From: Acidobacteria bacterium UBA6911
GTDB lineage: Bacteria > Acidobacteriota > UBA6911 > RPQK01 > JAJDTT01
Assembly: GCA_963579905.1 (NCBI GenBank)
Contig: CAUZIZ010000003.1
Span: 3,249-67,248, forward strand
Direction: 5' to 3'
Length of the DNA: 64,000 nt
The position numbers and the translations under genes are program-made. The notes beneath the pieces were generated by a model that was not told where the DNA came from, ran no database searches, and saw only the letters and a program-made list of their open reading frames with translations. Numbering within the stretch: position 1 is the first letter of the stretch; the number at the start of each line of letters is the position of its first letter. Shown piece by piece: positions 4,080-63,518 of the stretch.

Positions 4080-4459
4080 TTTGAAAAAACACCAGTCGAT
4101 GAATTGTTGGCCGGTTGTCAGCGGAGATTCCTCCGCAGCCGGCTCAAAGATCAGCTATTGTTCTTAAAGAAAACGCGAACAGGGAAACTCCAGCTCCGCT
4201 CGGATCATCGTTCTTGGCCTGTGCTGTTCGTGAAATGATTCGGGGGCCATTGGAGATCCCGCCGACGACATTGTCCCCTTCAGATGGTGGAGGAGTACGG
4301 CTAAGCCAACATTTCGTGGTGTGGCCTCCGGGCCGAAAACGGCCGCTTGGAAGACACCGCCACGATATCCGAAGCAAATTTCTTCCCGAATGGAGCCAGC
4401 GCTTCTGGGGCGGATGTTCGGGACCCCGTTCTTGGAGATTTTCGAAAAACGACAGGAGA

Positions 4460-7400
4460 CTACTCCGAATCTGGAGTCCCTGGGACAACCGGGAAGACCG
4501 TCACGAGGGGCACCTCTTCCGGGTACTCTACCCCGGCAGTATCTTTCTGCCTCGAGGTAACTGCCGCCAGCGGCCGATCACATTCCAGCGTCAAGAGCCC
4601 TTTCATTTCTTGTGCTCTGGCGACAACGTCTTCGTCATCGAAAAACTGATGGACGAAACGAGCCAGATGACTTCCTGCAGCCAGTGGATCGAGCTCTTTC
4701 TCAGCAATCAGGTTGAACTCTTGATCAAACAGTCGCAGTGTTACAAGGGCATCTGGTGCTCCCTGGTCCGCCGGATAGACGATTGCCAGTCCCGTGTCCC
4801 TACTGCCGGTCGAATCGACCGAGATCGAGAACTCCGTTAGCAAGGTTGAAGCCGGGACCCCGGCCTCGAACAATAGGACGCCTGTTGCCTGGTCAATGCG
4901 GGTGAAGATAACCACCCCCGAGACTCCTGCGCCAGACGATACCCGAGCATATCCAACTCGAAGATCCCCATTGCCCAGGGTGGGCAGTGAGATCGAGTCC
5001 CCTTTCCTGAGCTCGACCTCAAAGCGACTGGCTGTCCCAAGAGTGCCCAGGGTAACCTCCAAAGGCTTACCATCGGGATTGGCAAAGAACTCGATCTGAA
5101 CTCTGCTGTCGAAGCCGGTGTTGACTAGGACCAGAGTCGACTTGAACTGAATGGGGAAGGTGGACCCATCTGCGAGCTGTGGGAAAAAGAAGGAAGAACG
5201 TCGTGCGGGGCCGCCCGGTTCTACAACCTTGCCATCAGCGACTAGATCATCGTCTCCTCGCTCTCCATCTACGAAGTGCAATCTGACCGTGTCCCTTGAA
5301 ATCTCCGCGCCTGTAGTCCCATCTTCCAGGAACTCGTACCAGTGCGGACTCGGGTCGGCAGGTGTAGGGCCATACTTGAAGTAGGTCTCCACATCCTCCC
5401 CAGGCGGCAGCAGTAGATCGACTGTGGCGGTAGAATCTTCAGCCACGCCTTCTACTGTAAGGCTGAAAAGGCCCAGCGGGAAGACAACACCAGGAGGCGG
5501 CAGCATCCCAGGCAGCGAAGCCGTTCCGACCTGGGTCAACGTCAAGGGCCTGTCAACCACGAGGCTGACATACCTACCCGTGAGGCTGTCGGGTAGTGAA
5601 CAGACATAGGCCTGTCTGCTGTCGGGCACACCATCCTGGTTGTTGTCTCCCGCATTGGGAGCAGCTTCCTCCACCAGGTCCCTGACACCATCGCCATCGC
5701 TATCGGCTTCATCCGGAAGAAAGAAGCGCGTGGCCAGCTGAAAGGCGTTTCGGCCGATCTGCGCGCCAATGAAACGCCCCGGGATGTCGTCTGCGGTTGG
5801 ATGGATCCCACCATAGATGCGCGAGATGCTGGTCTCGTCCGACGCGTCGCGATAGGTTGCCCATTGCAAAGTGATGTCGACGCTGGGTCCGTCCTCGAAA
5901 ACAAGGAATTCGTTCCGTGCTACGAAGAACTCACCAAGCCCGCCCGGGAAGAAGGCGTCTCCGGTGAATCTGGTCATCAATTCCGCAGCCGCTCGGCTGA
6001 AGGTGCTGTGGCCCGAGACATAGGCGGCAAAAGGCGGTGTGACAAAGGTCGGACGCTGGTAGGGCCACCACCGCTCGGCGAGAATCCAGCCGACGCCCGC
6101 CGCCGTCGTCGTGGGATCGGAAACGAAATCTGGCCCACGCCAGGTCTTTACCGCGATCTTTCCCAGATTTTCGTTGCTCGGACCCGCCAGGTGCTCATGC
6201 CGCTCACCCGCGGCGACCGTGTCTGGGGTAATCACTTCGACAACACCAGGCTTCAGGCCGATGCCGGCAGGGTGATAGGACGGCCCGCTGGGATCGCTCC
6301 TTTGCCCGTTATCAGCCATATAGCGAATTGCCGAGATCGGGCGGATGTAGTCATACCAGCCTTTGGCACCCCAGGCCGCCACCGCTGAATCGTGGACTGC
6401 TCCACCCAATGAGAAATAGAGTTTGACATCCCATTCGAGATCGTCGAGTGGCTCTCCGGCACCCGCAAAACGCTTCACACCGAGAGGATGGTCGGAGACA
6501 TAGTTGGCGATCGTAAACCAGTGACCCGGAGGTGTCTCCGAATCGGGTCCATCCGCCCAGAACTCTGCCAGCACACGATAGTAGTCGCCTGCTGGAACGA
6601 TCTGCGGAAGGTAGGGCAGTCCCGTGACTGGGTTGACCTCACGGCCACCTCCGTTGTTGGTCCCGAGCGTGTTGTTGCCTCGCGCATTTGGACTGATGTC
6701 GATCATTACACCGTCCGTAGGGTCCAGCTTTCCGCTCCACTCGACCACCTGCTCGAAGCCCGAGCGGTAGTCCCCAGCGCCAGTGCCTCCGATCATCGGC
6801 GGGGGACCCGGATCGAGATAGACCCAGTACTCGTCTCCGGCGCGTTCGTAGATCGTGAGGTCATCGGCGCCCAGTGCGAAGGGCGTGACCTGGCCCCACT
6901 CCGGACTCACGAAGGGAGGGACACCAAGGGGAGACGGAATGCCCGACTGGCCGACAAAAAACTTGAGCGAAAGCGGTTGCCACAGGTTCGGATCTACAAT
7001 ATTCGGGTTGCCGGCAATTGCCGGAAGCAGGGGTGGGTTCCGGGGCTGGTAGAAGCGGTTCGAATAGCCGTTCTCTTCGTTGGCACCATCGGCCCTTCCT
7101 ACGGCAAGTACGGTCGCGGCGATCCGATTGCCCAGAGCCGCCGGAGAATTGCCTGTCACGTCAGTGAAGTCGATGTCGTAGCCAAGCTCGGCCATCTTCG
7201 CGTCGAACGAGGGAAGCGATACGCGTGCGCCCGGCGAGTTCGCGAATCGGGCACTCAGGATACGATAGGAGGAGTAGCTGATCGCCTCCCGGCGCGCGCT
7301 GGCAGCGTCCGCTGCCGTGGCCTTCTCCTGATGGAGATACTGCTGGGCAACCAAGTCGTAAGCTGCCCACGCGTCCCACATGCCAATCGCGGTGTGAAAG

Positions 7401-9124: not shown

Positions 9125-9540
9125 TCGGCGGTTTTCAGAGCATCAAGGAGCTTGTGAGGCCGGGTGGCCGGGTGTATCAGTCCCGGCAGGCGGTTGTCGA
9201 CGAAGTCGCGAACAACAAGTTCCTGAGTATGACGAAGCCGATGGGCGCGATGTATGCGTTAATCAAGATTGAAGATGCGATCGCCGACAGAATCGATGAT
9301 CAGACATTCGCGATCGAGCTACTCGAGAACACACATGTGCTGGTGGGGCCAGGCAGCAGTTTCAACACACCCTATATGGACCACTTTCGCATCACTACAT
9401 TGCCGGATCCTGATATAATTCACGATGTTTTTTCGCGAATCGAGTCACTGCTGAAACAGTATGCCCGATTCGATATCCTCGTTGCCGCCGGCTCGTCCCG
9501 GCGCCAGCCCACAAGAATCCAGTTTGCATCGAATGTGTAG
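9058..9540 (+). pseudogene. C-terminal ~130-aa fragment of an AlaA-like class I aminotransferase.
   Basis: AGLRLCSNVPGQWAVPMALGGFQSIKELVRPGGRVY...ALIKIED...HVLVGPGSSFNTPYMDHFRITTLP aligns with the C-terminus of alanine aminotransferase. The ~270-aa PLP-binding N-terminal part is absent. Confidence 0.6.
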
Positions 9541-9543
9541 ACG

Positions 9544-10722
9544 GTGTGCTCGTCCTATGAGGGAAAAGAGACGAGAAATCAACGGTTTGTACTCCAACTT
9601 CTGTGGTTGCAGGGAGTCCTGCTTCTCGGGGCTTCCCTGTCGTGTGGAGAATCCCGCGACTCGATTGGGATTCGAAAAGGTCCGACCGAAGCGGTCCGCA
9701 TGAGCATACTGGAGCGCACCAGCGAGCCCCTATTGATAAGTGATCGTCCTTGGAAAAAGTTCACCCTCAACTACCTGACAGTCATCCGGGAGGGGAAACT
9801 CTGGCGTATGTGGTATGCCGCGTATGCCACGGACTACGAGTACTACAGCGATGCCTATCTCTGCTACGCAGTTTCGTAAGACGGAGTCCACTGGGAAAAG
9901 CCGGAGCTGGATCTGGTGCCGTGGAAGGACGGTCAGGTCAAGACCAACATCCTCATGGACGGCCGCAGCATGCGCGCCAATACGACCACCGTCTTCCGCG
10001 ACGATGAGGCCCCCTCTGATGAGAGGTACAAGGCCCTTCTGCAGAAGTTCCTGGGACGCGACGAGAACGGCAGGGGCGTTTGGCGCAATTCTGCTGCCGT
10101 CTCACCGGATGGCTTGCAGTGGAGTCTGCTTCAGGAACCCATCTACCCCTGGAACAGCGATACCCAGAACGTCTGTCTCAAGGACGGCGACCAATACCGT
10201 TTCTATGCCCGACTCTGGAGGGGTGTGGACAAGGCGGGGAACTCGTCCATCTCTACCGAAACCGAGAACGCGACAACCAGGACCATCGGACTGAGCGAGT
10301 CCTCAAAGTTCTCCCGATTTCCCAAGGCTCAGGAGATCCTGGCACCAGATCCTCAGGATCCGGACGACATGGATTTCTACAACAACGCCTGCACCCGAAT
10401 CAAAGAAGACCTCTACGTGATGTTCATCTCGGCTTTCTACAAACCCGAAGGGGTCATCCGGGTACTGGGGGCCTGGAGTCGCGATGGCCGCTCCTTCCAG
10501 CGACTGGGCCGCAAACCACTTCTGGGTCTGGGTGAGGGTGAGGGATTCGACTCCAAGGTCCTCTACGTTGCCCCCGGAGCGGTCCCAGGACCGCGACCCG
10601 ACACCTACTGGTTCTACTACCTGGGTCAATCAGCCAAACATGATGACAATGTTCCTGGAAAGGTCCATCACGGGGCGGGAGTAGGGAGGTTCTTGGTCGA
10701 GATTCTGGATGGCGGTTCGTGA
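9544..10722 (+). pseudogene. GH130-like (DUF377) secreted beta-propeller glycosidase/phosphorylase-family paralog with an in-frame TAA at 9877..9879.
   Basis: ORFs 9544..9879 and 9916..10722 are in one frame. The read-through is ...AYLCYAVS*DGVHWEKPELDLV..., matching intact paralogs (CYPISEDGYHWEKP at 10835.., SQDGIAWEKP at 27868..). The N-terminal block DRPWKKF...LWRMWY is present. Confidence 0.7.
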
Positions 10723-10834
10723 TTGCGCGGCTCTTCCCGCTTGGATAGTGACCACTTGGCTGGCGTCGTGGTAGTCCGGTGCTGAGCGCGGAAACCCCAA
10801 CTGTGGATTCGCTTATGTCTGATGGAAGATCAGG

Positions 10835-12565
10835 TTGTCTAAGATGAGTATGAGTGCAGAGTCGAACCTGACGCGACGCCGCTTTCTCAGATCCGCTGCG
10901 CTGAGCACTGTCCTCATGGGTAGCTACATGAGTAGTCCTGCCCTGGGACCCCAGCGAAGGCCAGGGGATGGGCACACCGTCCTCGCCGGTACCAAACGGA
11001 TCCTGTTCTTCGACGACTCCATGATCGAGAGCTTGAAGAGCGCCCGATTCGCGTTGAACACTGCAGTCAAGGTATCGAACAACCCGGTGATCAAGAGTGA
11101 CCGTCCCTGGGAGGGGAACACGATTGCTGAAGCAACCGTGTTCTACGACCAGAATCTGAAACTCTTCAGGATGTGGTATCCAGTCTATGACTACCACCCG
11201 CCAATTCCTCCAGCAGAAGAGCCGGTTCCGCAAAACCAGCCGGGAGTCGCCGATATCGCGAGCGAAAGGAAAAGATGCACCGCCTGCTATCCCATCTCTG
11301 AGGATGGATACCACTGGGAAAAACCCTCTCTCGGATTCCTCGAGTTCCAGGGTTCGAAGGCGAACAACATCCTGATGGCGAGCAGTCTGAAGAGCCGTTC
11401 CCACTTCAGTACTGCCCATCTCTTCCGGGATCCTGTGGAAGAGAATCCCGACAAGAAATACAAAGGGCTGAAGTCGAACATGATTCGGGGGCCGGGCGAG
11501 CAGGAAAGGATGACCATTGACCTTTACTACTCGGGCGATGGCTTCAACTGGGAACCCTACGAGAAGAATCCTGTCTATGATCTGAAAAGGTTTGGGAGCT
11601 GGGGTCCGACATCGTTCATGGGGTGGGACCCGATCCGCAGAGTCTATGCCGTCTACATGGAAAACTGCGGCCACCAGCGCTGTCCCGTCGGGAAGCGGCT
11701 CATAGGCCGGGCTGAAAGCCCGGATATGATCGACTGGAGCGAATCTGAGACGATCCTGGTTCCAGACGAGGCAGACGGTCCTGATACCGAGCTCTACGCC
11801 ATGCACCCCTGTGTCTACGGAGACTACTATGTGGGCATGCTCTGGATCTTCAACAAGACTCAGCAGGCACACTATCTGCAGTTCGTTTTCGGTCGCGACG
11901 GAATCCGCTTCGACCGCCGGTACAGGGAGCCCTTCATCGTCCCTGGCGTCACTCCCGCGTTCGACTCGAGTTCAATCCTTCCCCTCAAGCCTATCGTTCA
12001 CAAAAACGAAATCTTCATCTACTACATCGGGGCCAACTACAGAACCCGGCAGCAGTTCGACGCCCTGGGCGAAGAGAAGGCCCGTTGGTCGATCGGATTA
12101 GCGGTTGTTCCCAGGGACCGGTTCGTGTGTCTGTTCGGCGACGAGGGTGAAAGGGGAGAGGTCGTCACGCGTACCTTGAGGTTTTCGGGGAACAGGTTGC
12201 ACGTGAATATGGAGGTGGCTGGCGCTGGTCCTGGCGATTTGAGGGTGGATGTCCTTGATCCCGCATATTTCCCGCTGCCGGAGTATACCCTGAAGGATGC
12301 CGACGCACTTCCCAGAGGCGGCCTCGACAGCGTGGTGACTTGGAATGGAAACCCTGACATCAGCGCACTTGTCGGGAGGCCGATAAAACTGAGGTTCTAC
12401 CTCAGGAACGCTAGACTCCGTTCTCTTTTAGGGTTCTTCCTGGGAACTCGGACGACGGCGGCGGGGACGATCTCGTGTGATCAGTCAGGTATCCTTGTTT
12501 CTTCGCCAGCTATAATAAAAAAGCACATGGAGTCCGTTCGCTCTTCGCGGCTTCAGTACTCATAG
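10835..12565 (+). CDS. GH130-like (DUF377) 5-bladed beta-propeller glycosidase/phosphorylase-family protein with a TAT signal.
   Basis: The twin-arginine signal is RRRFLRSAALS. The N-terminal pattern NPVIKSDRPWEGNTIAEATVFYDQNLKLFRMWY matches the NPIL..WE..VFN..L.YRA signature of GH130. Repeated S-x-DG-x-x-W blocks and an FRDP motif are present. Confidence 0.7.
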   Translation: MSKMSMSAESNLTRRRFLRSAALSTVLMGSYMSSPALGPQRRPGDGHTVLAGTKRILFFDDSMIESLKSARFALNTAVKVSNNPVIKSDRPWEGNTIAEATVFYDQNLKLFRMWYPVYDYHPPIPPAEEPVPQNQPGVADIASERKRCTACYPISEDGYHWEKPSLGFLEFQGSKANNILMASSLKSRSHFSTAHLFRDPVEENPDKKYKGLKSNMIRGPGEQERMTIDLYYSGDGFNWEPYEKNPVYDLKRFGSWGPTSFMGWDPIRRVYAVYMENCGHQRCPVGKRLIGRAESPDMIDWSESETILVPDEADGPDTELYAMHPCVYGDYYVGMLWIFNKTQQAHYLQFVFGRDGIRFDRRYREPFIVPGVTPAFDSSSILPLKPIVHKNEIFIYYIGANYRTRQQFDALGEEKARWSIGLAVVPRDRFVCLFGDEGERGEVVTRTLRFSGNRLHVNMEVAGAGPGDLRVDVLDPAYFPLPEYTLKDADALPRGGLDSVVTWNGNPDISALVGRPIKLRFYLRNARLRSLLGFFLGTRTTAAGTISCDQSGILVSSPAIIKKHMESVRSSRLQYS

Positions 12566-12577
12566 GTCAGTAGCTGC

Positions 12578-12806
12578 CCAGCGGTGCTGCCCCATTCGAG
12601 AAAGAAACTTCCGGCTACTGGGGATTTGTGCGTCACTGCGTGGGGAAGAGTTGTCCAGCTCTCCTCGGAACTTGGCCTCATGTTGCTAACGGCTCAAGTC
12701 GTTCGCAGCTCTGTCGAACTTGGCTTCGTAACGCTGGTAGTTCACCCGTTGGCGGCACCTTCGGAGGACAGGAGACGTGCGACGTATTCTTGAAGTTTCG
12801 GCTTAG
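12578..12806 (+). repeat. Copy A of a ~220-bp noncoding repeat family. Other copies are at 40762..40981 (+), 54155..54326 (-) and a partial copy at 29447..29520 (+).
   Basis: Nucleotide identity with the other copies is roughly 85% (core ...cgtcactgcgtgggRaagagttgtccRgctctctcctcggaacYtggYctcatgYtgctaacggctcaagtcgttcgcRgctctgWcgRacttgSc...). The overlapping small ORFs differ by indels between copies, so the element is not protein-coding. Confidence 0.7.
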
Positions 12807-13374
12807 CCCCGCCACCGGCTGCGCTGGATCGTACATGAAAGAAACTGGTGCCCCCAGGACAGGCGGTGCAGAAAGGTTGTATAATCTTTCTATGAGTCTT
12901 CTGGGACGAGGGTTGGCTTGGACGCATCTAGTGGTGTTCGGTGCAACCATATCCTGTGCCCTGGCGTGTCCGCAGTTTGAGGTGAGTGAGGCAGCATCCT
13001 GTTCGGAACCTCAGTCGAGTAGCTGCTGTACGTACCCTATAGAGGGCAAGTGTCTTGGGTGTGTCGACACCAATTTCTTCGAACCAAGCAAGCATACTAC
13101 GCTGGCTGCGCCCCTTCCCTCAGACTACACTCGCGTCAATCTAACCGAGAACAATCTTCCCGAGCCACCTTTTCAGTCAGCGTCCTTTGTTATAGCCAAA
13201 TCCATTTTTCTCACAAACAGCGCTTTCCTGATTTAGTCTCTCCGCCCTTCCGTCATTTCCGTTTGATTGCGGCGATATCTCCTTCGCCAAAATTGTTCGA
13301 CCTACAGCTGTCCCATGCGGCCGTCCTTGCACGGTGGCACCGGTTGCGGGGACATGAAGAGAGGGATCAATCTT

Positions 13375-27867: not shown

Positions 27868-29379
27868 ATGAAACAAGCGGCCTATTCAGTCCTGGTGATC
27901 TTGCTTGTGGGAATAGGGTGCAGCCGTGAGCTGCCTCCATCCCAGGGACAGTCGATCGAAATCGGTACCCAGACCCAGCTGGTGGTGGACGATTTTGCCA
28001 TCGAGGTCCGGGAGGCGGTAGAAAGATGGGTCAATGCGCTGATTAAGCATCCCGCTAACCCCATCCTGCGGCCCGATCGGCCCTGGGAGGGGCAGTCCAC
28101 CATGCCTTCGACCGTGCTCTACGACGGCTCGGAGCGCCTTTTCAAGATGTGGTACGGGACGACGGAGCAGCGGTGGAATCCCCATCAGAAACGGAGCCGC
28201 TGGGCCTATGCCACTTCCCAAGATGGGATTGCCTGGGAGAAGCCCGAGCTGGGGCTGGTGGATTTTCGGGGCTCGCGTAGAAACAATCTCCTTCCCGATG
28301 CAGCGGGAAGGGTCTTGATGGATTTCGCGGAGAAGGACTCGTCCCGCAGATTCAAGGCCTTGCGCTATGGCCGGGCTACCTCTGACGGGCCCGAGGGCAT
28401 TTGTGTCGCCTTTTCTCCGGATGGGTTGCGTTGGGAACCCTATCCTGGGAATCCGCTTCTGACCGCTGGCGGGTTCACGCTTCATTGGGGGATCGGAGAC
28501 ACCCTCACCCTCTTTGGATGGGACGAAAAGGCTGGGAAATACGTGTCCTATATGAGGCCGAGCATCCTCTTCCGACACATAGGGCGCTCCGAGAGTACCG
28601 ACTTCATCGACTGGAAGATTCCCAATCCGGTTCTGGTGCCCGATGAGGAAGATCCGCCTGGCACCCAGTTCTACGGAATGTCTGTCTTCCGCGATCGAGA
28701 GGTCTATTTTGGCTTTCTCTGGGTCTACCACCCCAACTCTCTGATAATCGATGTCCAGTTGGCCTACAGCCGGGATGGAATCGGATGGCGCCGCACCGAT
28801 CGGCGCCATCCAATTCTCAGCTACGGTCTGCCCTATCGCTTCGATTCCCATGTCCTGATCGCGCTGGAGCCCCTCATTAGAGAAGACGAAATCTGGGTCT
28901 ACTGTGCCGCTGAGAACAAGGCCCACGTGCTGACAAAGCAGGACCTTCGACTGGGAACTCATTCACTCGGGGATACTGCAATCCCCTTGGACCAGCAGTC
29001 ATGGCTGAAAGAGAGGCGGGGGTATGGAGGCCTGGCAATGGTCCGGCGCGACGGCCTGGTGTCGCTTGACAGCGATGCCCCCGAGGGAGTGGTCACCACC
29101 AAGCCGTTTGTGTGTCGGGGGAAGCAGCTGTTGCTCAATGCCGATGCCTCTCGGGGCCGGATCCGGGTAGAGCTGCTTGACAGGATGGGCGTTGCGCTGC
29201 CGGGTTTCGAGGCGGGTCGCTCGGATCCTCTCCACGGAGATTCGGTCAGCCCGCTTGCCAGTTGGGATGGCAAGTCAGATCTGTCTTCTCTGGAAGGGCG
29301 AAAGATCAAACTGCGGTTGCTGATGTCCCACTCCAAACTCTTTTCCTTTCGATTTGGCAAGATTGAGGGTGCTCTATGA
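27868..29379 (+). CDS. GH130-like (DUF377) secreted beta-propeller protein, intact paralog.
   Basis: Signal peptide MKQAAYSVLVILLVGIGCS. NPILRPDRPWEGQSTMPSTVLYDGSERLFKMWY. S-x-DG-x-W repeats. The C-terminus aligns with paralogs. Confidence 0.7.
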   Translation: MKQAAYSVLVILLVGIGCSRELPPSQGQSIEIGTQTQLVVDDFAIEVREAVERWVNALIKHPANPILRPDRPWEGQSTMPSTVLYDGSERLFKMWYGTTEQRWNPHQKRSRWAYATSQDGIAWEKPELGLVDFRGSRRNNLLPDAAGRVLMDFAEKDSSRRFKALRYGRATSDGPEGICVAFSPDGLRWEPYPGNPLLTAGGFTLHWGIGDTLTLFGWDEKAGKYVSYMRPSILFRHIGRSESTDFIDWKIPNPVLVPDEEDPPGTQFYGMSVFRDREVYFGFLWVYHPNSLIIDVQLAYSRDGIGWRRTDRRHPILSYGLPYRFDSHVLIALEPLIREDEIWVYCAAENKAHVLTKQDLRLGTHSLGDTAIPLDQQSWLKERRGYGGLAMVRRDGLVSLDSDAPEGVVTTKPFVCRGKQLLLNADASRGRIRVELLDRMGVALPGFEAGRSDPLHGDSVSPLASWDGKSDLSSLEGRKIKLRLLMSHSKLFSFRFGKIEGAL

Positions 29380-31337
29380 CAGTCAGATCAGCGAGCCCCT
29401 CTTCTTCCGCTGGATTATTCAGGAAGAGAGGTGCGGTCGGGGACTCGGAAGATTTTTCTGTTGTCCACTCTCTCCTCGGAACTTGGCCTCGGATTGCAAG
29501 CTGCTCAAGTCGTGCGCGGATTTGGTTTGCTTTCCCATCCATTGATGCTGGTGATGGGGGGGCATTTCGGCGTGCTGTTCCAGGTTTCTTGATTTTTGTT
29601 CTTGCTGTTGCGTCTGGCTGCAGTTCGCTCTTCGAGCTCCCCACCGTTGCTACGGGCCCGGCCAGTGCCCCGGGAACGGCAGCCATCACGGTCAACGGCA
29701 GCGTTAATCCGCACGCGGTGGCAACTCATTACTATTTTGAATATGGCACCTCGGCTGCCTACGGAAAGAGAACGCCTGTTCGTGAGCTTCCTTCACGCCT
29801 GGCGGCGTACTTCTACGAAAGCTGGGATGAAGGCCCGGGAGGGTGGACGACCTGGGGTGTGAAGCAGTCTTTGCACCGAGACGGCGGACACTCCAACGGA
29901 TTCTTGAGGATTTCCGAGCCCAGCACCTTGAACGACTACAATCACAGGATGGCCGGAATTCTCCATCTGGCCAAATTCTTCTACTCGGGACCGGTCTACA
30001 AGAGTGCGTACCTGGGTGGAGGTGATCCCGATTTCAGGGATGCCCGGGTCCGTCTCTGGGTGCGCGGAAATGACTGGAAGCCGAACGGGTCCGAGCTGGT
30101 CTGGTGGACCCAGAGTCAGAGTAATATCGAGGCGGGGAATCAGAGAGGCGTTTTCAAACGCGCCAATTGGGACTATACCGGATTCACGCTGACCGCCCAT
30201 CTCCGCGACGGCAATTGGAATCGGGTCGAGTACCGGCTTCGCAACGACACCACCCAGTGGACGTATGGGGGGAGTAACCTGGGTTCGGACGGGCGCAAGT
30301 ACTATTCATATCGGTCCATTGACCAGGCTCTGGGCCATCTCAACTGTAATTTTTTCCATCTCCTGGCCTTTGTCAATCCCCACAATCCTCCTACTGGATC
30401 GATCGATTTCGATGAGTTCGAGCTTGCCTATCGCAACGAGTCTCTGGTTTTTCCCAGTAATGGAGGGAAACTGATCGACTGGCGCCGATACTCCAAAGTA
30501 GATCCCGCAACCCTGACGGACGGATGGCGACACGGCGAGGACCGGATGTGGAAGAGCCAGGAAAATCCCGCCGGTCCCCGGGAATTCACCTACACCTCCG
30601 AATCCGAGGTCACGATCGATACGGTTCAACTGCACCAGAATCCCGAGTGGCCGGGCAAGGGCGTGGAGGTTCTGGTCTCGGCGGACGGCAACTCCTATCA
30701 GTCAATCCTGAAGCGGCCCTTTCCAGAAAAGAGCAATAGCGGCCCCAATTTTGACTTTGTCGTCGAGCAGGGACTCGCCAGCAAGGCCCGATATTTGAGA
30801 GTTCGTCTCTCTTCTGGCTATCAGCGTCGCTACTGGGGATTGGGAGAGATCGAGATTTTCGGTAGCGGCGCTACCATGGTCCCCGATGACGATGACTACT
30901 ATGTGAATACCGATCTTTACGATGTTAAGCCGGGTGAGACTTGTCACTACAGGCTGGTGGCGACCAACAGTCACGGGAGCGGCTATGGAGAGGATCGGAC
31001 TTTTACCCTTCCTGCGTCGGACCAACCGCAGGTCCTGAAGGGGCAATCGAGTCGTATTAACGGTTCGACCGCCAGGCTGCAGGGAAGAGTCAATCCCATG
31101 GGCGTGCCCACCTATTTCTGGTTTGAGTGCGGCACCGACGAGGAGTATGGATCGAAGACCGAGGTCAGGTATGCGGGTCTCGAGCAGACCCCACGGACGG
31201 TTTTCGAGACCCTCACTGGATTGGGATCCGGAACGACGTACTACTACAGGACCGTAGCAGTCAACGGAAGTGGTACCGGATATGGAGATGCCGCTAGATT
31301 CAGCACGACAACATTATCCGCGTCCGAGGGACGATAG
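29376..31337 (+). CDS. Secreted/lipoprotein carbohydrate-binding protein with FN3-like tandem domains and an F5/8-type-C (discoidin)-like domain.
   Basis: Repeats GSVNPHAVATHYYFEYGTSAAYGKRT and GRVNPMGVPTYFWFECGTDEEYGSKT. Discoidin-like YLRVRLSSGYQRRYWGLGEIEIFG. Lipobox-like LAVASGC. The ATG at 29376 overlaps the upstream stop (ATGA), but the first ~70 aa overlap repeat copy D, so the true start may be TTG 29589. Confidence 0.6.
   Translation: MTVRSASPSSSAGLFRKRGAVGDSEDFSVVHSLLGTWPRIASCSSRARIWFAFPSIDAGDGGAFRRAVPGFLIFVLAVASGCSSLFELPTVATGPASAPGTAAITVNGSVNPHAVATHYYFEYGTSAAYGKRTPVRELPSRLAAYFYESWDEGPGGWTTWGVKQSLHRDGGHSNGFLRISEPSTLNDYNHRMAGILHLAKFFYSGPVYKSAYLGGGDPDFRDARVRLWVRGNDWKPNGSELVWWTQSQSNIEAGNQRGVFKRANWDYTGFTLTAHLRDGNWNRVEYRLRNDTTQWTYGGSNLGSDGRKYYSYRSIDQALGHLNCNFFHLLAFVNPHNPPTGSIDFDEFELAYRNESLVFPSNGGKLIDWRRYSKVDPATLTDGWRHGEDRMWKSQENPAGPREFTYTSESEVTIDTVQLHQNPEWPGKGVEVLVSADGNSYQSILKRPFPEKSNSGPNFDFVVEQGLASKARYLRVRLSSGYQRRYWGLGEIEIFGSGATMVPDDDDYYVNTDLYDVKPGETCHYRLVATNSHGSGYGEDRTFTLPASDQPQVLKGQSSRINGSTARLQGRVNPMGVPTYFWFECGTDEEYGSKTEVRYAGLEQTPRTVFETLTGLGSGTTYYYRTVAVNGSGTGYGDAARFSTTTLSASEGR
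29447..29520 (+). repeat. Partial copy D of the ~220-bp repeat family.
   Basis: ttgtccactctctcctcggaacttggcctcggattgcaagctgctcaagtcgtgcgcgg aligns with the core of copies A, B and C. It lies ~70 bp after the GH130 gene stop. Confidence 0.5.
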
Positions 31338-31435: not shown

Positions 31436-31522
31436 GCGAAAGTGGCGGAATTGGCAGACGCGCCAGATTTAGGATCTGGTGGGTGAGAGCCCGTGGGGGT
31501 TCGAGTCCCCCCTTTCGCACCA
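31436..31522 (+). tRNA. tRNA-Leu(TAG): tRNA-Leu (anticodon TAG) with a long variable arm.
   Basis: GCGAAAGTGGCGGAATTGGCAGACGCGCCAGATTTAGGATCTGGTGGGTGAGAGCCCGTGGGGGTTCGAGTCCCCCCTTTCGCACCA. Acceptor stem GCGAAAG/CTTTCGC. Anticodon loop TT-TAG-GA. T-arm GGTTCGAGTCC. Confidence 0.9.
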
Positions 31523-31570
31523 AATGAAATCAACGGGTTACAGTGATGTGACGGAAGCGAACCGAGCCCG

Positions 31571-31762
31571 TCACGGACCTGTCGTCCAGTTTTCGTCCAG
31601 TTCCGAATGACGGTTTTGCCACTCTTGTAGCTCCGCTTTCTGAGCCGCCTTCACCGAACGGGTGGCGTGTGAGTCCACATAGTGGACGTAGCGCATGGTG
31701 GTCTGGATGTCCGCGTGCCCCAGACTTCGCAGTCGTCGGTCGCCAGTCAGGGAACGTCTGAA
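31571..31762 (-). pseudogene. C-terminal ~60-aa remnant of a tyrosine recombinase (phage-type integrase).
   Basis: ...RRLRSLGHADIQTTMRYVHYVDSHA... is the conserved C-terminal catalytic-Tyr block (GH..i.tT..Y.H) of integrases. The upstream part of the ORF is not integrase-like. Confidence 0.6.
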
Positions 31763-31785
31763 CGTTTCTGACGGAGCACCTACAT

Positions 31786-33420
31786 TCACCAAAAGAAATA
31801 GAATACCAACACGAACGACGTCGCGACTACGACGCCCGCCCACAGATGGGGCTGCAGCCACCACGAAGACACGCCGTCGGGAAAAGGTGACTCCTGGATC
31901 TCCGGCACATCTGCCTGGGAACGACGGAGCCAACCCGACTCCTCTGTCTCCAAAGCATCTCGGTCCTCGGACCTCCCCAGCACCAGAGAGCTCAAAATCA
32001 TGGCGCCCGAAGTAATGGCAATGCTCCAGAGATAGGCAACAAACCGGTCAGTCAACCAGACCGGGAGCATCCCCAGACTAGAACCAATGATCGCCAGGAT
32101 GCCGTAGGTGGAACCGGCGGCAAGACCCAGAATCCCACTTCTTCGATGGACTCGGGTGAAGACGCCCATCAAATAGACGGTCATCAGCGGTATCACGAAA
32201 ACGCTCGTAACTCGCACGAAGAAGCTGGCAATATTCTCGTAACTCAAGATGAACGGAATGTAGAGGAAGGAAAGACCGATGACGACTGGAGTCACCGTCC
32301 GGCTGACTTTCAAGTAGTGCGCGTCTTCTCGATCCCGGGCGATCAACCTGGCGTAGATGTCTCGGGTGCAGAGGGCAGACAGCGCTGATCCAATGCCCTC
32401 GTAGGTCGTCATGGCGGCCGACACGACACCCGCGACTACAATCCCCTTCAGCCCACTGCCCAGGAACCGGTTCACGAGGAGGGGATAGATCTCGTCCGGA
32501 CGCTGCAAGGTCTCGGGCCAGAGTGCGCGGCCCAGAATTCCCAGGGTGCCATTGAAGTACATCATCACCATGGTCATGGCGGCAGCCAGCAGGACTGACA
32601 TCTTCACGTCCCACAACGAGCGCGCCCCTAACAGCTTCATTGTCTCGCTGTGGTTGACGATTGGATAGGCGGCTCCGATGATCACCCATGCCGCCACCAC
32701 GATGAGCGCGTCGGGCTGACCTGGGCGGGAGGCCCCAATATGAAGCAGGTACCCGGGAAGCTCGGTTCCGCCCTTGGCTGCCAGGGCTGCGGTGGCTCCC
32801 TCCCAACCGCCTACGGCCTGCCAGACGACAACCCACAGCACCAGCGTCCCCAGGACCATGGAAACGGTCAGGAAAGCATCCGCCCAGGCAATGGTCTTGA
32901 GTCCGCCGCGCGCGGAATAGAATGTGGCCATGCCGGCAAAGGCCACCACCACGGCCCACGCCCAGAATCCTTCGACTCCCATGACACGCGTGAGCATCAG
33001 CTGCAGTGAAATCGCAATGCCGGCGAGGATGTTGGTCCGGTATTGGACCTGGACCAGCACACTGATCACCCGGGCACCTGGGCCGAAGCGGCCCTCCAGA
33101 TACTCGGCGTTGGTGAACATGGCTCCCCGGTACATTGGCGGCAGGACAAAAAAAGCCGTCACGACGTAGCCGATGACAACCCCCATCCACCAGGTGGAGA
33201 GAATCGAAATGCCGTCGGTATAGCTGATGCCGCTCAAGGCAACGATGTCACCGGCATCCACCGACGTGGCAAACATGGAGACAGCGACGATCCAGAAGGG
33301 GAGGCTACGTCCACCCAGAAACCAGTCGACGTGGGTCCGGGTCTGGCTGGATCGCAAAAGACCATAGCCGAAGACCGTAAGGTTGATACCAACAACAATG
33401 GCCCAATCAAGCAGGGTCAT
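31786..33420 (-). CDS. Sodium:solute symporter (SSS/SLC5) family transporter.
   Basis: 544 aa with multiple TM segments. SSS blocks GGRSLPFWIVAVSMFATSVDAGDIVALSG and FFVLPPMYRGAMFTNAEYLEGRFG. Confidence 0.85.
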   Translation of the reverse strand: MTLLDWAIVVGINLTVFGYGLLRSSQTRTHVDWFLGGRSLPFWIVAVSMFATSVDAGDIVALSGISYTDGISILSTWWMGVVIGYVVTAFFVLPPMYRGAMFTNAEYLEGRFGPGARVISVLVQVQYRTNILAGIAISLQLMLTRVMGVEGFWAWAVVVAFAGMATFYSARGGLKTIAWADAFLTVSMVLGTLVLWVVVWQAVGGWEGATAALAAKGGTELPGYLLHIGASRPGQPDALIVVAAWVIIGAAYPIVNHSETMKLLGARSLWDVKMSVLLAAAMTMVMMYFNGTLGILGRALWPETLQRPDEIYPLLVNRFLGSGLKGIVVAGVVSAAMTTYEGIGSALSALCTRDIYARLIARDREDAHYLKVSRTVTPVVIGLSFLYIPFILSYENIASFFVRVTSVFVIPLMTVYLMGVFTRVHRRSGILGLAAGSTYGILAIIGSSLGMLPVWLTDRFVAYLWSIAITSGAMILSSLVLGRSEDRDALETEESGWLRRSQADVPEIQESPFPDGVSSWWLQPHLWAGVVVATSFVLVFYFFW

Positions 33421-34438: not shown

Positions 34439-34638
34439 GAGCAGCACCGGCAACCCGGCCTCGGGACCTTGCTCCTTTGCCCACCCTGACTGCCGTAATC
34501 ACCGGACAACTTCAGCCCGGAATCGGTGGACAACTTGGCCCGGAACAAGCATAGGATTGGCAGATCTAGTCCCGGAAAGGCTCAGTCGGGTTGAGGAAAC
34601 GCTTGTAGGTTTGAGGACGCCGTCGTTTCCGGTAGGGA

Positions 34639-36060: not shown

Positions 36061-36106
36061 ATAGGGAAGAGAGAACAGAGGTCGTCTTCAAGCTGGGAGC
36101 AGCAGT

Positions 36107-40646: not shown

Positions 40647-40761
40647 GTCGGGAAGGCACTCGATCCTCTGGAGGCTCTCCTTTCCGGGGTTCTGAAGGAA
40701 TATTCTGGTAGGAATTTGAGTCACAAATTTCAGTTCAGTCCCGCCCCCAGGAAGCCCTGGC

Positions 40762-40981
40762 CTCACTCGAGAAGGAAACTTCCCGCTATTGGGAAGATTG
40801 TGCGTCACTGCGTGGGAAAGAGTTGTCCGGCTCTCTCCTCGGAACCTGGTCTCATGTTGCTAACGGCTCAAGTCGTTCGCGGCTCTGTCGGACTTGCCTT
40901 CGTCACGCTGGTACTTCACCCGTTGGCGGCACCTTCGGAGGGCAGGAGACGTGTGACGTATTCTTGGAGTTTCAAGCTTAG
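40762..40981 (+). repeat. Copy B of the ~220-bp repeat family.
   Basis: It aligns end to end with copy A (12578..12806), with several single-base indels. It lies between the UPF0104 gene and nqrA. Confidence 0.7.
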
Positions 40982-52625: not shown

Positions 52626-54119
52626 ATGAAGTCCTCAGACCACTACGACATTCTGGTCATCGGGAGCGGGCCGGCCGGTCAGAAGGCTGCAGTTCAAGGA
52701 GCCAAGGCGGGCAAGCGTGTGGCGGTGGTCGAGCGGGACCGAAACGTCCGCGGTTCCTATGTCCATACCGGTACGATACCCCAGCAAGACCCTCAGAGAG
52801 AATGCGCTGCAGCTGGACCGATATCAGCGCAGCAGCACAATCTTGGAGTGCAAGCTCAGAGAGGATCTCAGGGTGGACCACCTGATCGGGCGGATGCATC
52901 AAGTCGTCGAGTCCCATGTGAGCTTCATGAGTAGTCACCTTGAACGAAACCACATCCAGCGCCATCTGGGCCGGGCACGCTTCGTCTCGGAAGCAGCCGT
53001 GGAGGTGATGTCTCCCAACGGATCGACCCAACGCATTGGCGCCGACGTCTTTGTAATCGCCACAGGATCCAGGCCGCGTATCCCCCGCCCGAGATTTCAG
53101 TCGACCACCAATACATCCTGGACAGCGATTCCATACTGTCCATGAACTACCTTCCCGATTCGCTGACGGTCCTCGGCGGCGGCATCATTGCGTGCGCATA
53201 TTCCTCGATCTTCCAGCTCCTGGGAGTTCGAGTCACGGTCATCGACCGCTCGAAGCGCCCCCTTCACTTCTTGGACCCTGAAATGACGGAGGAGTTTCTG
53301 AAAGGCTTTCGAGGGAGTGGTGGTCGCTTCTTGAGCGATCGCCGAATCAGCGAGGTAGGTTGGGACGGGGTCTCGAAAGTGAATGTCGAGTTAGTTGATG
53401 GAGACAAGATCGAGAGCGAGAAGATGTTGGTCGCCATAGGACGACAGGCCAACCTGGACGGACTCGGTGTAGAGAGTGCCGGTCTCGAGGTGGATCGTTG
53501 CTGCAAAACGTCCGTTCCCCCTATCTACGCCGTTGGAGACGCTGCCGCCCCCCCGGACTGGCGTCCTCGGCGATGGAGCAGGGTCGGCGTGCTGTCCTTC
53601 ATGCCCTTGGGTTGGGGAAGGACAGCAACGACGAGGCGATCCCAATGGGCATCTACACGATCCCCGAGATGGCCGCTGTGGGGATCACAGAGCAGCAGGC
53701 AGCCGATCGTTTCGGCGGCGCCCTGGTTGGTCGGGCACGATTCTCTGAGGTGGCACGCGGACAGATCTCAGGTCTGACGGTGGGCTTTCTGAAGCTAGTA
53801 GCCGACCCCCGGGAAACGGTTGCTCGGCGTCCACATTGTGGGCGAGGGCGCAACCGAGCTGATCCACCTGGGTCAAATAGGGCTCCTCGATGGCGGCGGG
53901 GTAGATTTCTTCGCGGACAACATATTCAATTTCCCCACGCTTGCCGCGGCCTATCGAGTGGCCGCTCTGGACGTAGTCAACAAGCGCTCCATTCGGGCCC
54001 AGATCGCGCGCGATTCCTCAGCTGAAACTTCAAGAATACGTCGCACGTCTCTAGTCCCCGGACGGCGCGTCGAACGGGCCCTGTTTGCCGACAGCATCAA
54101 CCTACTTCCGCAAGACTAG
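52626..54119 (+). pseudogene. SthA/Lpd-like pyridine-nucleotide-disulfide oxidoreductase (soluble transhydrogenase-like) broken by 4 frameshifts.
   Basis: It is colinear with E. coli SthA across five overlapping ORFs. Frame 1 gives [19 protein letters not shown]...VERDRNV. Frame 2 gives [15 protein letters not shown]...FVIATGSRP. Frame 3 gives ISVDHQYILDSDSILSMNYLPDSLTVLGGGIIACAYSS...PPIYAVGDAAA. Frame 4 gives LASSAMEQGRRAVLHAL...IPMGIYTIPEMAAVG. The last frame gives LLGVHIVGEGATELIHLGQ...FNFPTLAAAYRVAALD. The shifts are at C4 52779..52782, the c-tract 53082..53090, C7 53548..53554 and near 53806..53818. Confidence 0.75.
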
Positions 54120-54154
54120 AACTAGACTCCCCAGACTCTTGTCACGACCTGAGG

Positions 54155-54326
54155 ATGAACTACCAGTACGACAAAGCCAAGTCCGTCAGAGCCGCGAACG
54201 ACTTGAGCCGTTAGCAGCATGAGGCCAAGTTCCGAGGAGAGAGCTGGACAACTCTTCCCCACGTAGTGCCGCACGATATCGCCTATCCTCAACCGAAGTT
54301 TCGTTCTCGAATGGGGCAGCACAGCT
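54155..54326 (-). repeat. Copy C of the ~220-bp repeat family (inverted orientation, 3'-truncated).
   Basis: The reverse complement aligns with copies A and B over ~170 bp. It lies 36 bp after the sthA-like pseudogene. Confidence 0.7.
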
Positions 54327-54368
54327 GGGGGGCGAGACTGATCTGGGACTTCTCACGGCCGGCTCTGA

Positions 54369-63009: not shown

Positions 63010-63439
63010 TGAAGAGAATAGAGTTCCTAAAGGTTGCTGGCAAGGCCTCGGCTGTGTGCACTGTCCCCTTCGTGTCCGGCGCTGGTCCAAGCCGGGAAGA
63101 TACCGTATCGACACTCTGGAGCCTCGGCCGGTGAGCCCCTTCAATGTTGGTGGCAAGGCACAACTCCTCATAGAGCGTCTGCTGGTCAGGGAGTCCCCGG
63201 GAGTTGGCTTCGCGCTCCACCCTGCTGAAAAGCACCCATCCAATCCGGGGGGGGTGCGGGCAGACCAACCCTGGGAAGGATGGCGCTTGGAGATCGACGG
63301 CAACGTCATCTACGACGAAGAAGAGAAGATCTTCAAGATGTGGTACCTGGGAGAAGGAGACGACCATTTTCCCTTTGAGTATCCTACCCTCTACACGGCC
63401 ATCACGGGCAGGGATGCCCGTGCCACTACAGGATACTGA
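63010..63439 (+). pseudogene. N-terminal fragment of a GH130-like paralog, frameshifted and truncated.
   Basis: Signal peptide MKRIEFLKVAGKASAVCTVPFVSGA (frame of ORF 62874..63134). The family N-terminal block ADQPWEGWRLEIDGNVIYDEEEKIFKMWY is in the frame of ORF 63056..63439. It stops after ~130 aa, and a convergent gene follows. Confidence 0.55.
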
Positions 63440-63518
63440 AGTTTCTTTCTCGCATGGGGCCACCACAGCCAGCGTGAGGGACCGACCAGACACCCCAAGA
63501 TTACGAACGCCTGTGCGA

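What the first reader, a model, noticed from the sequence alone, without database searches (positions are those of the whole stretch)
12578..12806. A ~220-bp noncoding repeat family lies immediately 3' of genes, in 4 copies within 64 kb.
Copies are at 12578..12806 (+), 40762..40981 (+), 54155..54326 (- and 3'-truncated) and partially at 29447..29520 (+). They share roughly 85% identity. Each lies 13-116 bp after a stop codon: after the GH130 paralogs at 12565 and 29379, after the UPF0104 gene, and after the sthA-like gene. The ORF track calls a 60-90 aa ORF in each copy, but single-base indels between copies scramble the frame. Conservation is therefore at the nucleotide/RNA level. The element contains an imperfect hairpin (caagtcgttcg...cgaacttg) and 8-bp inverted termini (gaaacttc...gaagtttc) in copy A. 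Candidates are a REP/BIME-like 3'-UTR element, a MITE, or a family of small RNAs.
Basis: seen in the sequence. Interest (0 to 1): 0.7.

Follow-up and report, generated by a model that had tools for sequence, protein, structure and literature searches.

The report
Modular intergenic repeat family in Acidobacteriota
The finding is a real, previously undescribed family of non-coding, building-block-like DNA repeats scattered between the genes of marine and sponge-associated Acidobacteriota; it most resembles the mosaic intergenic repeats known from E. coli, pneumococcus and Neisseria, and shows no sign of being a gene or a structured RNA.

Summary
The repeat is real. The window holds three full copies: A 12566-12806 (+), B 40723-40981 (+) and C 54017-54352 (-). 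It also holds an old, diverged full copy, D (~29383-29600), and at least two solo fragments. Copy C is not truncated; it carries a third body variant. The 'inverted termini' are not termini.

The family is modular. Each unit has a ~58-nt leader module (T), one of two alternative linkers, a 19-nt box present 0-3 times, a near-invariant ~70-nt core, one of at least three alternative 3' bodies (one with 0-3 tandem 23-mers), and a closing 15-mer, GAAGTTTCAGSTYAG, which is also the start of T. Units sit head-to-tail in intergenic arrays.

I found ~190 further hits (full and partial copies) in 119 loci from Acidobacteriota MAGs and marine metagenomes. None was in viral contigs, Rfam or Pfam. Copies show no orientation bias relative to neighbouring genes, no excess folding energy, no covariation, no TIRs, no TSDs and no linked transposase.

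Best reading: a non-autonomous mosaic repeat of the BIME/BOX/NIME kind, spread by recombination or a trans-acting recombinase at the T junction. That step is inferred. It is a new family and a new variant of a known kind, of moderate interest.

The parts
12566..12611 (+). Copy A, leader module T. Its first 10 nt (GAAGTTTCAG) are missing; T starts right after the stop codon TAG at 12563-12565 and ends with GAAACTTC.
   Evidence: Sequence; T-HMM hit 12564-12613, E=5e-13.
12612..12650 (+). Copy A, linker variant 1 (CGGCTACTGGGGATTTGTGC) plus one 19-nt box (GTCACTGCGTGGGGAAGAG, 12632-12650).
   Evidence: Alignments. The box occurs 0-3 times in other copies. The strain L119 deletion junction falls at 12632.
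12651..12718 (+). Copy A, near-invariant ~70-nt core (TTGTCC..CTCCTCGGAAC..GCTCAAGTCGTTCGC..GTCGAA).
   Evidence: Invariant columns in the 32-copy alignment; 116 unique cores with few variable sites.
12719..12791 (+). Copy A, 3' body variant alpha, with no extra 23-mer repeats.
   Evidence: Alignments of alpha copies.
12792..12846 (+). Closing 15-mer of copy A (GAAGTTTCGGCTTAG, 12792-12806), continuing into a second, degenerate T module.
   Evidence: Pattern match; T-HMM hit 12792-12846, E=2e-8.
40723..40782 (+). Copy B, T module, with CAAATTTCAG in place of GAAGTTTCAG.
   Evidence: Sequence; T-HMM hit 40725-40782.
40783..40981 (+). Copy B: linker 1, 19-nt box (40804-40822), core (40823-40892), alpha body and closing motif GGAGTTTCAAGCTTAG (40966-40981).
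   Evidence: The same copy is present at 99.96% identity in an independent assembly, L046. Contig L047 breaks inside it.
54017..54352 (-). Copy C, full length on the minus strand: T 54292-54352, linker variant 2, box, core ~54182-54251, long body variant (alpha') 54032-54181, closing 15-mer 54017-54031. The tail of the broken sthA-like ORF (53820-54119) reads into it.
   Evidence: Pfam on the ORF.
29383..29600 (+). Copy D, an old diverged full copy: T remnant from ~29383, linker 2, no box, core 29461-29527, decayed body. It lies between the stop codon at 29379 and the start of a lipoprotein gene (~29570-29600).
   Evidence: Orthologous copies in L028 and L025, with flanks 84% identical, and in strains L079 and L092.
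63434..63487 (-). Solo T fragment (3' two-thirds of T), abutting the point where a paralog ORF (63056-63439) is cut short.
   Evidence: nhmmer E=2e-5; T-HMM E=1e-6; sequence.
4376..4412 (-). Weak, possible T remnant.
   Evidence: T-HMM E=0.006 only; not followed up.

Best explanation
The element is one member of a superfamily of non-coding, modular ('mosaic') intergenic repeats in marine and sponge-associated Acidobacteriota.

Anatomy (shown). A unit is made of:
- a ~58-nt leader module, T: GAAGTTTCAG-STYAG-GC-rich stretch with a short palindrome-CATTCGAGAAAGAAACTTC;
- one of two linkers;
- a 19-nt box, present 0-3 times;
- a near-invariant ~70-nt core;
- one of at least three alternative 3' bodies, one of which carries 0-3 tandem 23-mers;
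- a closing 15-mer, GAAGTTTCAGSTYAG, which is the beginning of another T.

T also leads at least three unrelated bodies and occurs alone. Units of different kinds sit head-to-tail in one intergenic region and share the 15-mer at their junctions.

Mechanism (inferred). The units are selfish or neutral non-autonomous DNA. They are multiplied and reshuffled at the DNA level, either by a trans-acting recombinase or transposase that recognises T and its 15-mer junction (as in modules that circularise and re-insert next to resident units), or by homologous or illegitimate recombination between T modules. The latter would also yield solo T's and the mosaic combinations.

Effects on neighbours are incidental: spurious ORFs, extended or truncated gene ends, contig breaks, and participation in deletions.
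For: Reality and copy number:
- There are 60 nhmmer hits in 45 genome loci, nearly all from three Acidobacteriota MAGs.
- There are 125 more in 74 metagenome loci.
- Contigs often end inside the element.

Modularity:
- Alignments show the alternative linkers, the 19-nt box at 0/1/2/3 copies, alpha vs beta vs alpha' bodies, and 23-mer tandem copies.
- T is followed by at least 5 different bodies.
- Head-to-tail arrays exist; the spacing between junction 15-mers is mostly 200-350 bp.

Non-coding:
- Indels of 4, 19 and 23 nt occur between copies.
- There is no Pfam hit.

DNA-level rather than RNA-level:
- Orientation is 23 sense vs 28 antisense in tandem gene contexts. Copies occur in convergent (43), tandem (56) and divergent (20) spacers.
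- Fold z-scores are +0.4 to +1.5.
- The alifold covariation term is -0.26.
- The outer 8-bp inverted repeat shows 69 one-sided vs 3 compensated changes.
- Rfam gives nothing.

Turnover:
- A copy lies downstream of the nqr operon in Langseth_Bin_00184 but not in the window.
- Within-genome core identity (~93%) exceeds between-genome identity (88-91%). A core haplotype (C,G,T) predominates in the Langseth MAG copies.
- Copy D is retained at an orthologous site in three species.
- The T palindrome is positionally enriched: a stem of at least 4 bp in 59% of T's vs 16% of shuffles, with at least 8 different stem sequences.
Against: - No mobilising enzyme was found. There is no recurrent transposase or recombinase among ~880 flanking ORFs in ~1 Mb.
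- The only transposase-like ORF in the window is an IS91-type Zn-binding domain at 34639-35577. It lies in an unrelated tRNA-Leu island and has no T motif nearby.
- No clean filled-vs-empty site was recovered. The strain differences that touch copies are microhomology deletions.
- There are no TIRs or TSDs, so transposition in the classical sense is unsupported.
- The ~70-nt interior core is conserved more strongly than the ends. A purely selfish model does not explain this, and it could point to a host or RNA function.
- Transcription was not testable.
Confidence: 0.55

Rival explanations
1. It is a family of transcribed RNA elements: small RNAs, or 3'-UTR or terminator modules that stabilise, terminate or regulate neighbouring transcripts. 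Under this view the invariant core is the functional RNA.
For: - The core is conserved far more than its surroundings across species.
- 60% of flanking gene ends are 3' ends, and divergent spacers are under-represented (20 of 119).
- A terminator-like hairpin plus U-rich tract is predicted on the minus strand of copy B at the T/linker boundary.
- The orthologous copy D has been kept upstream of a lipoprotein gene in three species, at about the same identity as coding DNA.
Against: - There is no orientation preference relative to host genes (23 vs 28).
- There is no thermodynamic signal on either strand.
- RNAalifold finds only 16 weak pairs and essentially no covariation.
- The top mutual-information pairs are explained by linked subfamily haplotypes.
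- Rfam gives nothing at E<=10 apart from a 16-nt chance hit.
- No consensus promoter lies inside the copies.
Confidence: 0.15
2. It is a host-recruited DNA site, in the way BIMEs bind IHF, gyrase and Pol I. The core and T would be binding sites for a nucleoid or topology protein, or recombination hot spots that promote exchange of neighbouring paralogs, as proposed for NIME arrays.
For: - The sequence is conserved without coding or RNA structure.
- Placement is intergenic and orientation-independent.
- Copies lie at the edges of strain-specific deletions.
- A large paralog family is common next to arrays: 18 of 271 adjacent ORFs.
Against: - The enrichment of that paralog family next to arrays is not significant (odds ratio 1.75, p=0.12).
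- The two deletions used 8-11-bp microhomologies. Only one of the four breakpoints lies in a repeat module.
- Old copies such as D decay in the core: 78-86% identity to the consensus.
- No binding protein is known.
Confidence: 0.15
3. It is a classical MITE or PATE: a deletion derivative of an insertion sequence, moved by that IS's transposase (DDE type with TIR and TSD, or IS200/IS605 type with subterminal hairpins and a fixed 5' target).
For: - It is small, multicopy, non-coding and intergenic.
- A CAG is conserved at the left boundary, and the same ...TTTCAG sits near the right end. This is reminiscent of IS200/IS605 target and right-end similarity.
- There is a short GC-rich palindrome ~15 nt inside the left end.
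Against: - There are no terminal inverted repeats and no target-site duplication at A, B or C.
- The conserved sequence continues 5 nt past CAG at the right end (STYAG).
- There is no hairpin near the right end common to the alpha and beta bodies.
- No parent IS sharing the ends was found in ~1 Mb of flanks.
- The element does not fold as a long hairpin.
Confidence: 0.1
4. It is a small protein-coding gene family, or remnants of one.
For: - ORFs of 66-91 aa are called in A, B and C.
- Two forward frames of the core are open in essentially all copies.
Against: - Frame-breaking module differences of 2, 4, 19 and 23 nt separate copies, including copies in Illumina assemblies.
- Variable core sites are not concentrated at third codon positions in either open frame (my reading).
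- There is no Pfam hit at E<=1.
- There is no ribosome-binding site before the recurrent ATG formed at the junction (my reading).
Confidence: 0.02

Closest known systems
Neisserial intergenic mosaic elements (NIMEs: RS blocks separated by 20-bp dRS3 repeats)
   Same: - Both form intergenic arrays in which a short conserved separator alternates with many unrelated families of 50-250-bp 'body' segments.
- Array length and content differ between relatives.
- Isolated separator-body-separator units exist.
- The separator contains an inverted repeat and is thought to be a recombinase site (PMC1797815).
   Different: - Here the separator is a ~58-nt module in direct orientation, not a 20-bp palindrome.
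- The dRS3 motif ATTCCCN8GGGAAT is absent.
- Bodies share a 70-nt invariant core in the subfamily found in the window.
- The phylum is different.
- No phage or IS110-type recombinase is linked so far.
Pneumococcal BOX elements (boxA-boxB(n)-boxC)
   Same: Both are modular, with an internal module present in a variable number of tandem copies; here the 19-nt box occurs 0-3 times and the 23-mer 0-3 times. Both are non-autonomous, intergenic and a few hundred nt long, and both give spurious small ORFs (PMC3184786).
   Different: BOX is predicted to fold into stable structures and is transcribed. These copies show no excess stability. There is no sequence similarity, and the terminal 15-mers here are direct repeats.
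E. coli BIMEs / REP (PU) clusters
   Same: Both are mosaic combinations of a GC-rich palindromic unit with other short motifs. Both are extragenic, are biased towards gene 3' ends, and number in the hundreds (PMC3184786).
   Different: REPs are 20-40 nt and alternate in orientation within BIMEs. Here units are ~200-350 nt and head-to-tail. The T palindrome is only 4-6 bp and only moderately supported. Association with a RAYT transposase could not be tested.
ISPpu9 (IS110 family) modular system with the hitch-hiking ssr9 module
   Same: Separate modules are each bounded by the same pair of short boxes (A/A' with an inverted repeat, and B/B'). They lie head-to-tail or alone, and a non-coding module is propagated by the transposase through its own circular intermediate (PMC12288879). 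This is the best mechanistic analogy for units that share a junction motif.
   Different: No IS110-type gene was found near any copy. No circular junctions were tested. There are hundreds rather than ~10 copies, and the target is not a REP.

Membership tests
MITE (DDE-type) | Terminal inverted repeats at the two ends | tested here: not met
   The ends carry the same 15-mer in direct orientation. The 8-bp inverted repeat GAAGTTTC/GAAACTTC encloses only the leader module.
MITE (DDE-type) | Target-site duplication flanking each copy | tested here: not met
   The flanks of A, B, C and of ~20 array ends show no duplicated flank.
MITE (DDE-type) | A parent IS with the same ends in the genome | tested here: inconclusive
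   None was found in ~1 Mb of flanking DNA. Whole genomes could not be scanned.
REP/BIME | Short GC-rich imperfect palindrome as the basic unit | tested here: inconclusive
   A stem of at least 4 bp sits at a fixed position in 59% of T modules vs 16% of shuffles, with at least 8 stem variants. Overall hairpin energy is no better than shuffles.
REP/BIME | Units clustered in alternating orientation with intervening motifs | tested here: not met
   Arrays are head-to-tail.
REP/BIME | Cognate RAYT (Y1 HUH) transposase gene flanked by the repeats | not testable with these tools
None was seen in the fetched flanks.
NIME | dRS3 separator ATTCCCN8GGGAAT | tested here: not met
   There are 0 matches in the window with up to 1 mismatch.
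NIME | Arrays of many body families separated by one conserved short repeat | tested here: met
   T is followed by at least 5 body types. Arrays hold up to 4 units (L040, L043).
BOX-like modular repeat | Internal module in a variable tandem copy number between fixed end modules | tested here: met
   The 19-nt box occurs 0-3 times and the 23-mer 0-3 times.
BOX-like modular repeat | Stable predicted secondary structure of the element | tested here: not met
   z-scores are +0.38 to +1.53 on both strands.
Known structured RNA family (Rfam) | Match to a covariance model, or conserved structure with covariation | tested here: not met
   Rfam gathering and E<=10 scans were negative. The alifold covariation term is -0.26. 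Outer stem: 69 single vs 3 compensated changes.
IS200/IS605-derived PATE | Subterminal hairpins at both ends, a fixed 4-5-nt target 5' of the left end, and no TIR or TSD | tested here: inconclusive
   There is no TIR or TSD, and CAG is conserved at the left boundary. However, the conserved sequence runs 5 nt past CAG at the right end, and no right-end hairpin is shared.
Protein-coding gene | One reading frame preserved across copies | tested here: not met
   Frame-shifting module differences; no Pfam hit.

The most novel reading that the evidence does not exclude
The T-led units may be independent mobile cassettes that excise as circles and re-insert at the 15-nt junction GAAGTTTCAG|STYAG. A site-specific recombinase encoded elsewhere in the genome (IS110/bridge-RNA-like, HUH or tyrosine type) would act on them. 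The invariant 70-nt core would then be a cis-acting RNA or DNA cofactor for that reaction. This would be a large, diversified population of recombinase 'hitch-hikers', comparable to ssr9 of ISPpu9 but with hundreds of copies and many body types.
Probability: 0.12. Interest if true: 0.7.

Novelty: new variant of a known kind. Interest (0 to 1): 0.42.

Why it matters
If the reading holds, these uncultured marine and sponge-associated Acidobacteriota carry hundreds of copies of a mosaic repeat system that no database describes.

Practical consequences:
- It breaks short-read assemblies.
- It seeds spurious 60-200-aa ORFs in annotations.
- It alters gene ends; the tail of the sthA-like ORF reads into copy C.

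Biological interest:
- It offers a new, phylogenetically distant example for the old question of how BIME/BOX/NIME-type mosaic repeats arise and spread.
- It has unusually clear unit boundaries: a 15-nt junction shared by all unit types. These could make the responsible recombination reaction identifiable from read-level data.

Tried and rejected
1. Protein-coding. Rejected because of frame-breaking modules and no Pfam hit.
2. Structured RNA. Single-sequence folds on both strands, RNAalifold on 32 copies, mutual information on 116 unique cores, and Rfam at E<=10 were all negative. The linked variation at three core sites looks like subfamily haplotypes.
3. It occurs only in alpha bodies, has 6 bp in the consensus, is absent from beta bodies and shows no compensation.
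4. Outer T stem as a structure. Rejected: 69 one-sided vs 3 compensated changes.
5. Filled vs empty site downstream of nqr (window vs L045). The flanks are too diverged for exact boundaries.
6. Strain-level polymorphisms among 121 loci. Only microhomology deletions (L119, L061) and an unrelated 839-bp TA-like indel turned up.
7. Search for a parent transposase. All-vs-all clustering of flanking ORFs, ORFs lying between distant junction motifs (these are TruB, PhyH and UvrB), and the IS91-like ORF in the window all showed no link.
8. Association with the 'GH130-like' paralog family. Not significant.
9. Integron attC or DGR ideas. Dropped because copies are dispersed next to housekeeping genes and number in the dozens to hundreds. 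Not formally tested.
10. Complementarity between the core (GCTAAC) and the junction (GTTAGC), as a guide-RNA hint. Inconsistent across copies on inspection.
11. Phage origin. There are 0 matches in viral contigs.
12. A Python RNAalifold run crashed. The tool version was used instead.

Full report

Yes. Reading the four stated places, the repeat finder, a MAFFT alignment and an nhmmer/BLAST self-scan all recover the family.
- A vs B: 89.2% identity over 223 nt.
- A vs C: 85.4% over 178 nt, plus 88.9% over 45 nt.
- B vs C: 87.7% over 122 nt.
- D vs the others: 82-85% over ~60 nt.

Several details needed correction.
- Copy C is not truncated. After a ~75-nt stretch absent from A and B (54078-54153), its 3' end resumes at 54017-54060. 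That stretch is a third body variant, shared with at least 7 metagenome copies at 85-91% identity.
- Copy D is a complete but old and diverged copy. It starts a few nt after the stop codon at 29379 and runs to the start of a lipoprotein gene. The long ORF 29376-31337 that crosses it is spurious upstream of the signal peptide 'FLIFVLAVASGCSS'.
- Additional pieces exist: a second, degenerate leader right after A (12792-12846), a solo leader at 63434-63487 (-), and a weak one at 4376-4412 (-).

**2. Where else is it?**

About 35 contigs came from one MAG (Acidobacteriota bacterium Langseth_Bin_00184). Several loci came from two long-read Acidobacteriota MAGs (CBDCLS01, CBDCMS01).
- Langseth Ridge is an Arctic sponge ground (PMC8826442); whether this MAG comes from sponge tissue was not checked.
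It found none in viral contigs.
- An HMM built from the window copies gives 60 hits in the genome loci and 125 in the metagenome loci.
- The window's own population is present in independent assemblies. L046 is 99.96% identical over 7.35 kb, including copy B. In L047 the contig ends inside copy B.
- Strains at ~99% identity are L119, L079, L061 and L092.

**3. Anatomy**

Alignments of full and partial copies show a building-block structure.
- (i) A ~58-nt leader module, T: GAAGTTTCAG-STYAG-YSCCGCCCC-short palindrome-CCCCATTCGAGAAAGAAACTTC.
- (ii) One of two linkers: CGGCTACTGGGGATTTGTGC or GGTCGAGGATAGGCGATATCGTGC.
- (iii) A 19-nt box, GTCACTSCGTGGGGAAGAG, present 0, 1, 2 or 3 times.
- (iv) A ~70-nt core that is almost invariant. 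There are 116 unique versions, with variation concentrated at ~8 sites.
- (v) Alternative 3' bodies: alpha (window A and B), which may carry 0-3 tandem copies of a 23-mer; beta, unrelated in sequence and with its own GATCGCC/GGCGATC hairpin; and alpha' (window C).
- (vi) A closing GAAGTTTCAG-STYAG, which is simply the first 15 nt of T.

After that 15-mer the sequence either becomes unique (about 20 array ends listed) or continues as a partial or full T.

T is also followed by at least three further, unrelated bodies, and it occurs alone. Different T-led units lie head-to-tail in one spacer, for example four units in L040 4457-5124. The spacing of junction 15-mers is mostly 200-350 bp.

The left 10-mer is intact (at most 2 mismatches) in 67 of 77 T's that follow another module, but in only 40 of 87 T's with a unique left flank. 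Mismatch frequency falls from 0.54 at the first base to 0.22 at CAG. So the left edge is ragged, whereas many array ends (about 20 listed) stop exactly after the 15-mer.

**4. Not a gene**

- Copies differ by 2-, 4-, 19- and 23-nt modules, including copies in short-read assemblies. No frame runs through the element.
- The called ORFs have no Pfam match at E<=1.
- All three reverse frames of the core contain stop codons (my translation of the consensus).
- Many real genes in the window are also broken: LPG_synthase_TM, the sthA-like Pyr_redox gene and a paralog at 9815-10722. The LPG_synthase split is reproduced in the independent assembly L046, so it is real.

**5. Not a structured or oriented RNA, as far as sequence can tell**

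- Folds of A and B on both strands are no more stable than shuffles (z +0.38 to +1.53).
- RNAalifold on 32 diverse copies yields 16 weak pairs, -10.7 kcal/mol, and a covariation term of -0.26.
- Mutual information on 116 cores shows only three mutually linked sites that behave as subfamily haplotypes.
- The outer 8-bp repeat of T has 69 one-sided changes vs 3 compensated ones.
- Rfam gives nothing.
- The one structural hint is a 4-6-bp GC-rich palindrome at a fixed position in T. It is present in 59% of T's vs 16% of shuffles and has at least 8 different stem sequences. Its folding energy is no better than shuffles, and the copies are not independent.
- Orientation relative to flanking co-directional genes is 23 sense vs 28 antisense.
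- Arrays occur in convergent (43), tandem (56) and divergent (20) spacers. The median distances are 115 nt to 3' ends and 124 nt to 5' ends. This is a mild 3'-end preference of the kind seen for many bacterial repeats, not a 3'-UTR rule.

**6. Evidence on dynamics**

- Copy D sits at the same site in three species whose flanking genes are ~84% identical. Its core has decayed to 78-86% of the consensus.
- The spacer after the nqr operon holds a copy in the Langseth MAG but not in the window.
- Core identity is ~93% within a genome and 88-91% between genomes. One core haplotype predominates in the Langseth MAG copies.
- These points indicate continuing, lineage-specific amplification or homogenisation on top of old insertions.
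- I could not capture a clean insertion event. The strain differences that touch copies are deletions.
  - L119 lacks window 9452-12631. The join falls at an 8-bp microhomology, GTCACTGC, one copy of which is the start of the 19-nt box of copy A.
  - The window lineage lacks 2.7 kb that L061 retains. The loss lies between 11-bp imperfect direct repeats. It removed a beta-type copy, a PhyH gene and the N-terminus of the LPG_synthase_TM gene.
- No transposase or recombinase recurs among ~880 ORFs flanking the copies.
- ORFs lying between distant junction motifs are TruB, PhyH and UvrB.
- The IS91-type Zn-domain ORF in the window (34639-35577) sits in a separate tRNA-Leu island and has no T motif nearby.

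**7. Explanation**

Shown: a non-coding, modular, multi-copy, orientation-independent intergenic repeat with head-to-tail arrays and a shared 15-nt junction.

Inferred: it is selfish or neutral DNA multiplied at the DNA level. Either a trans-acting recombinase recognises T and the junction, or recombination occurs between T modules. The latter also explains solo T's and the free recombination of linkers, boxes and bodies.

The strong conservation of the interior core is the main unexplained feature. It keeps an RNA or protein-binding role alive as a rival. I put 0.55 on the mosaic-repeat reading, 0.15 each on an RNA role and a host DNA-site role (the latter is not exclusive of the first), 0.1 on a classical MITE/PATE, and 0.02 on coding.

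**8. Comparison with known systems**

- In architecture it is closest to neisserial NIMEs, where a conserved short separator alternates with many body families in variable arrays (PMC1797815). It is also close to pneumococcal BOX elements, which have a variable-copy internal module (PMC3184786).
- In lifestyle it resembles BIMEs.
- The best mechanistic analogy is the ISPpu9/ssr9 system, in which separate modules bounded by the same boxes each circularise and move (PMC12288879).
- It is not a member of any of these. The dRS3 motif is absent. There is no stable fold. Units are direct rather than alternating. No cognate enzyme is known.
- Hence I class it as a new family and a new variant of a known kind.

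**9. Verdict**

This is a solid but moderately interesting finding. The MITE and small-RNA options are not supported.

Noticed in passing
window 31436-37897: A 6.3-kb island is integrated at tRNA-Leu(tag) (31436-31522). A 60-nt direct repeat of the tRNA 3' end recurs at 37838-37897 (97% identity). The island carries an SSF symporter, an IS91-type Zn-binding transposase ORF (34639-35577, probably degraded) and a BNR-like gene. The ~99%-identical strain L079 lacks the whole island. In two other species (L028, L025) a tyrosine-integrase-like ORF (my reading of its sequence; not scanned) sits next to the same tRNA.
   Followed up: partly
window 9452-12631 vs L119 9889-9896: Strain L119 lacks 3,181 bp: the 3' end of an aminotransferase-like ORF, two paralog genes and the first 66 nt of copy A. 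The join is at an 8-bp microhomology, GTCACTGC.
   Followed up: yes
window ~39704-39718 vs L061 10889-13614: The window lineage has lost 2.7 kb between 11-bp imperfect direct repeats, CGCC[A/T]GGGCAC. The loss removed a PhyH gene, a beta-type repeat copy and the N-terminus of the LPG_synthase_TM (UPF0104) gene. That gene is also frameshifted (39745-40341 / 40311-40646).
   Followed up: yes
window 52717-54119: The sthA-like pyridine-nucleotide-disulphide oxidoreductase is split over at least 3 frames. Its last ORF (53820-54119) reads ~34 codons into repeat copy C, past the end of the Pyr_redox_dim domain. Together with the other broken genes, this suggests ongoing pseudogenisation in this lineage.
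   Followed up: partly
It makes up 40 of 879 ORFs in the fetched loci. It is not significantly enriched next to repeat arrays (odds ratio 1.75, p=0.12).
   Followed up: partly
window 33454-33546: Two tandem copies of a ~49-nt unit (77% identical) lie inside the tRNA-Leu island.
   Followed up: no
L108 4530-5370 and L064 336-1176 vs L110 ~2506: An 839-bp indel is bounded by a 4-bp repeat (TCGA). By eye, it encodes what looks like a VapB/VapC-type (RHH antitoxin + PIN toxin) pair. It is unrelated to the repeat family.
   Followed up: no
L009 ~4640-4662 (-): One unit has the T interior missing. GAAGTTTCAGCC is joined directly to TTCGGTCGAGG, so about 45 nt between the two arms of the 8-bp inverted repeat are absent. 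This hints at deletion, or independent insertion, of the T interior.
   Followed up: no
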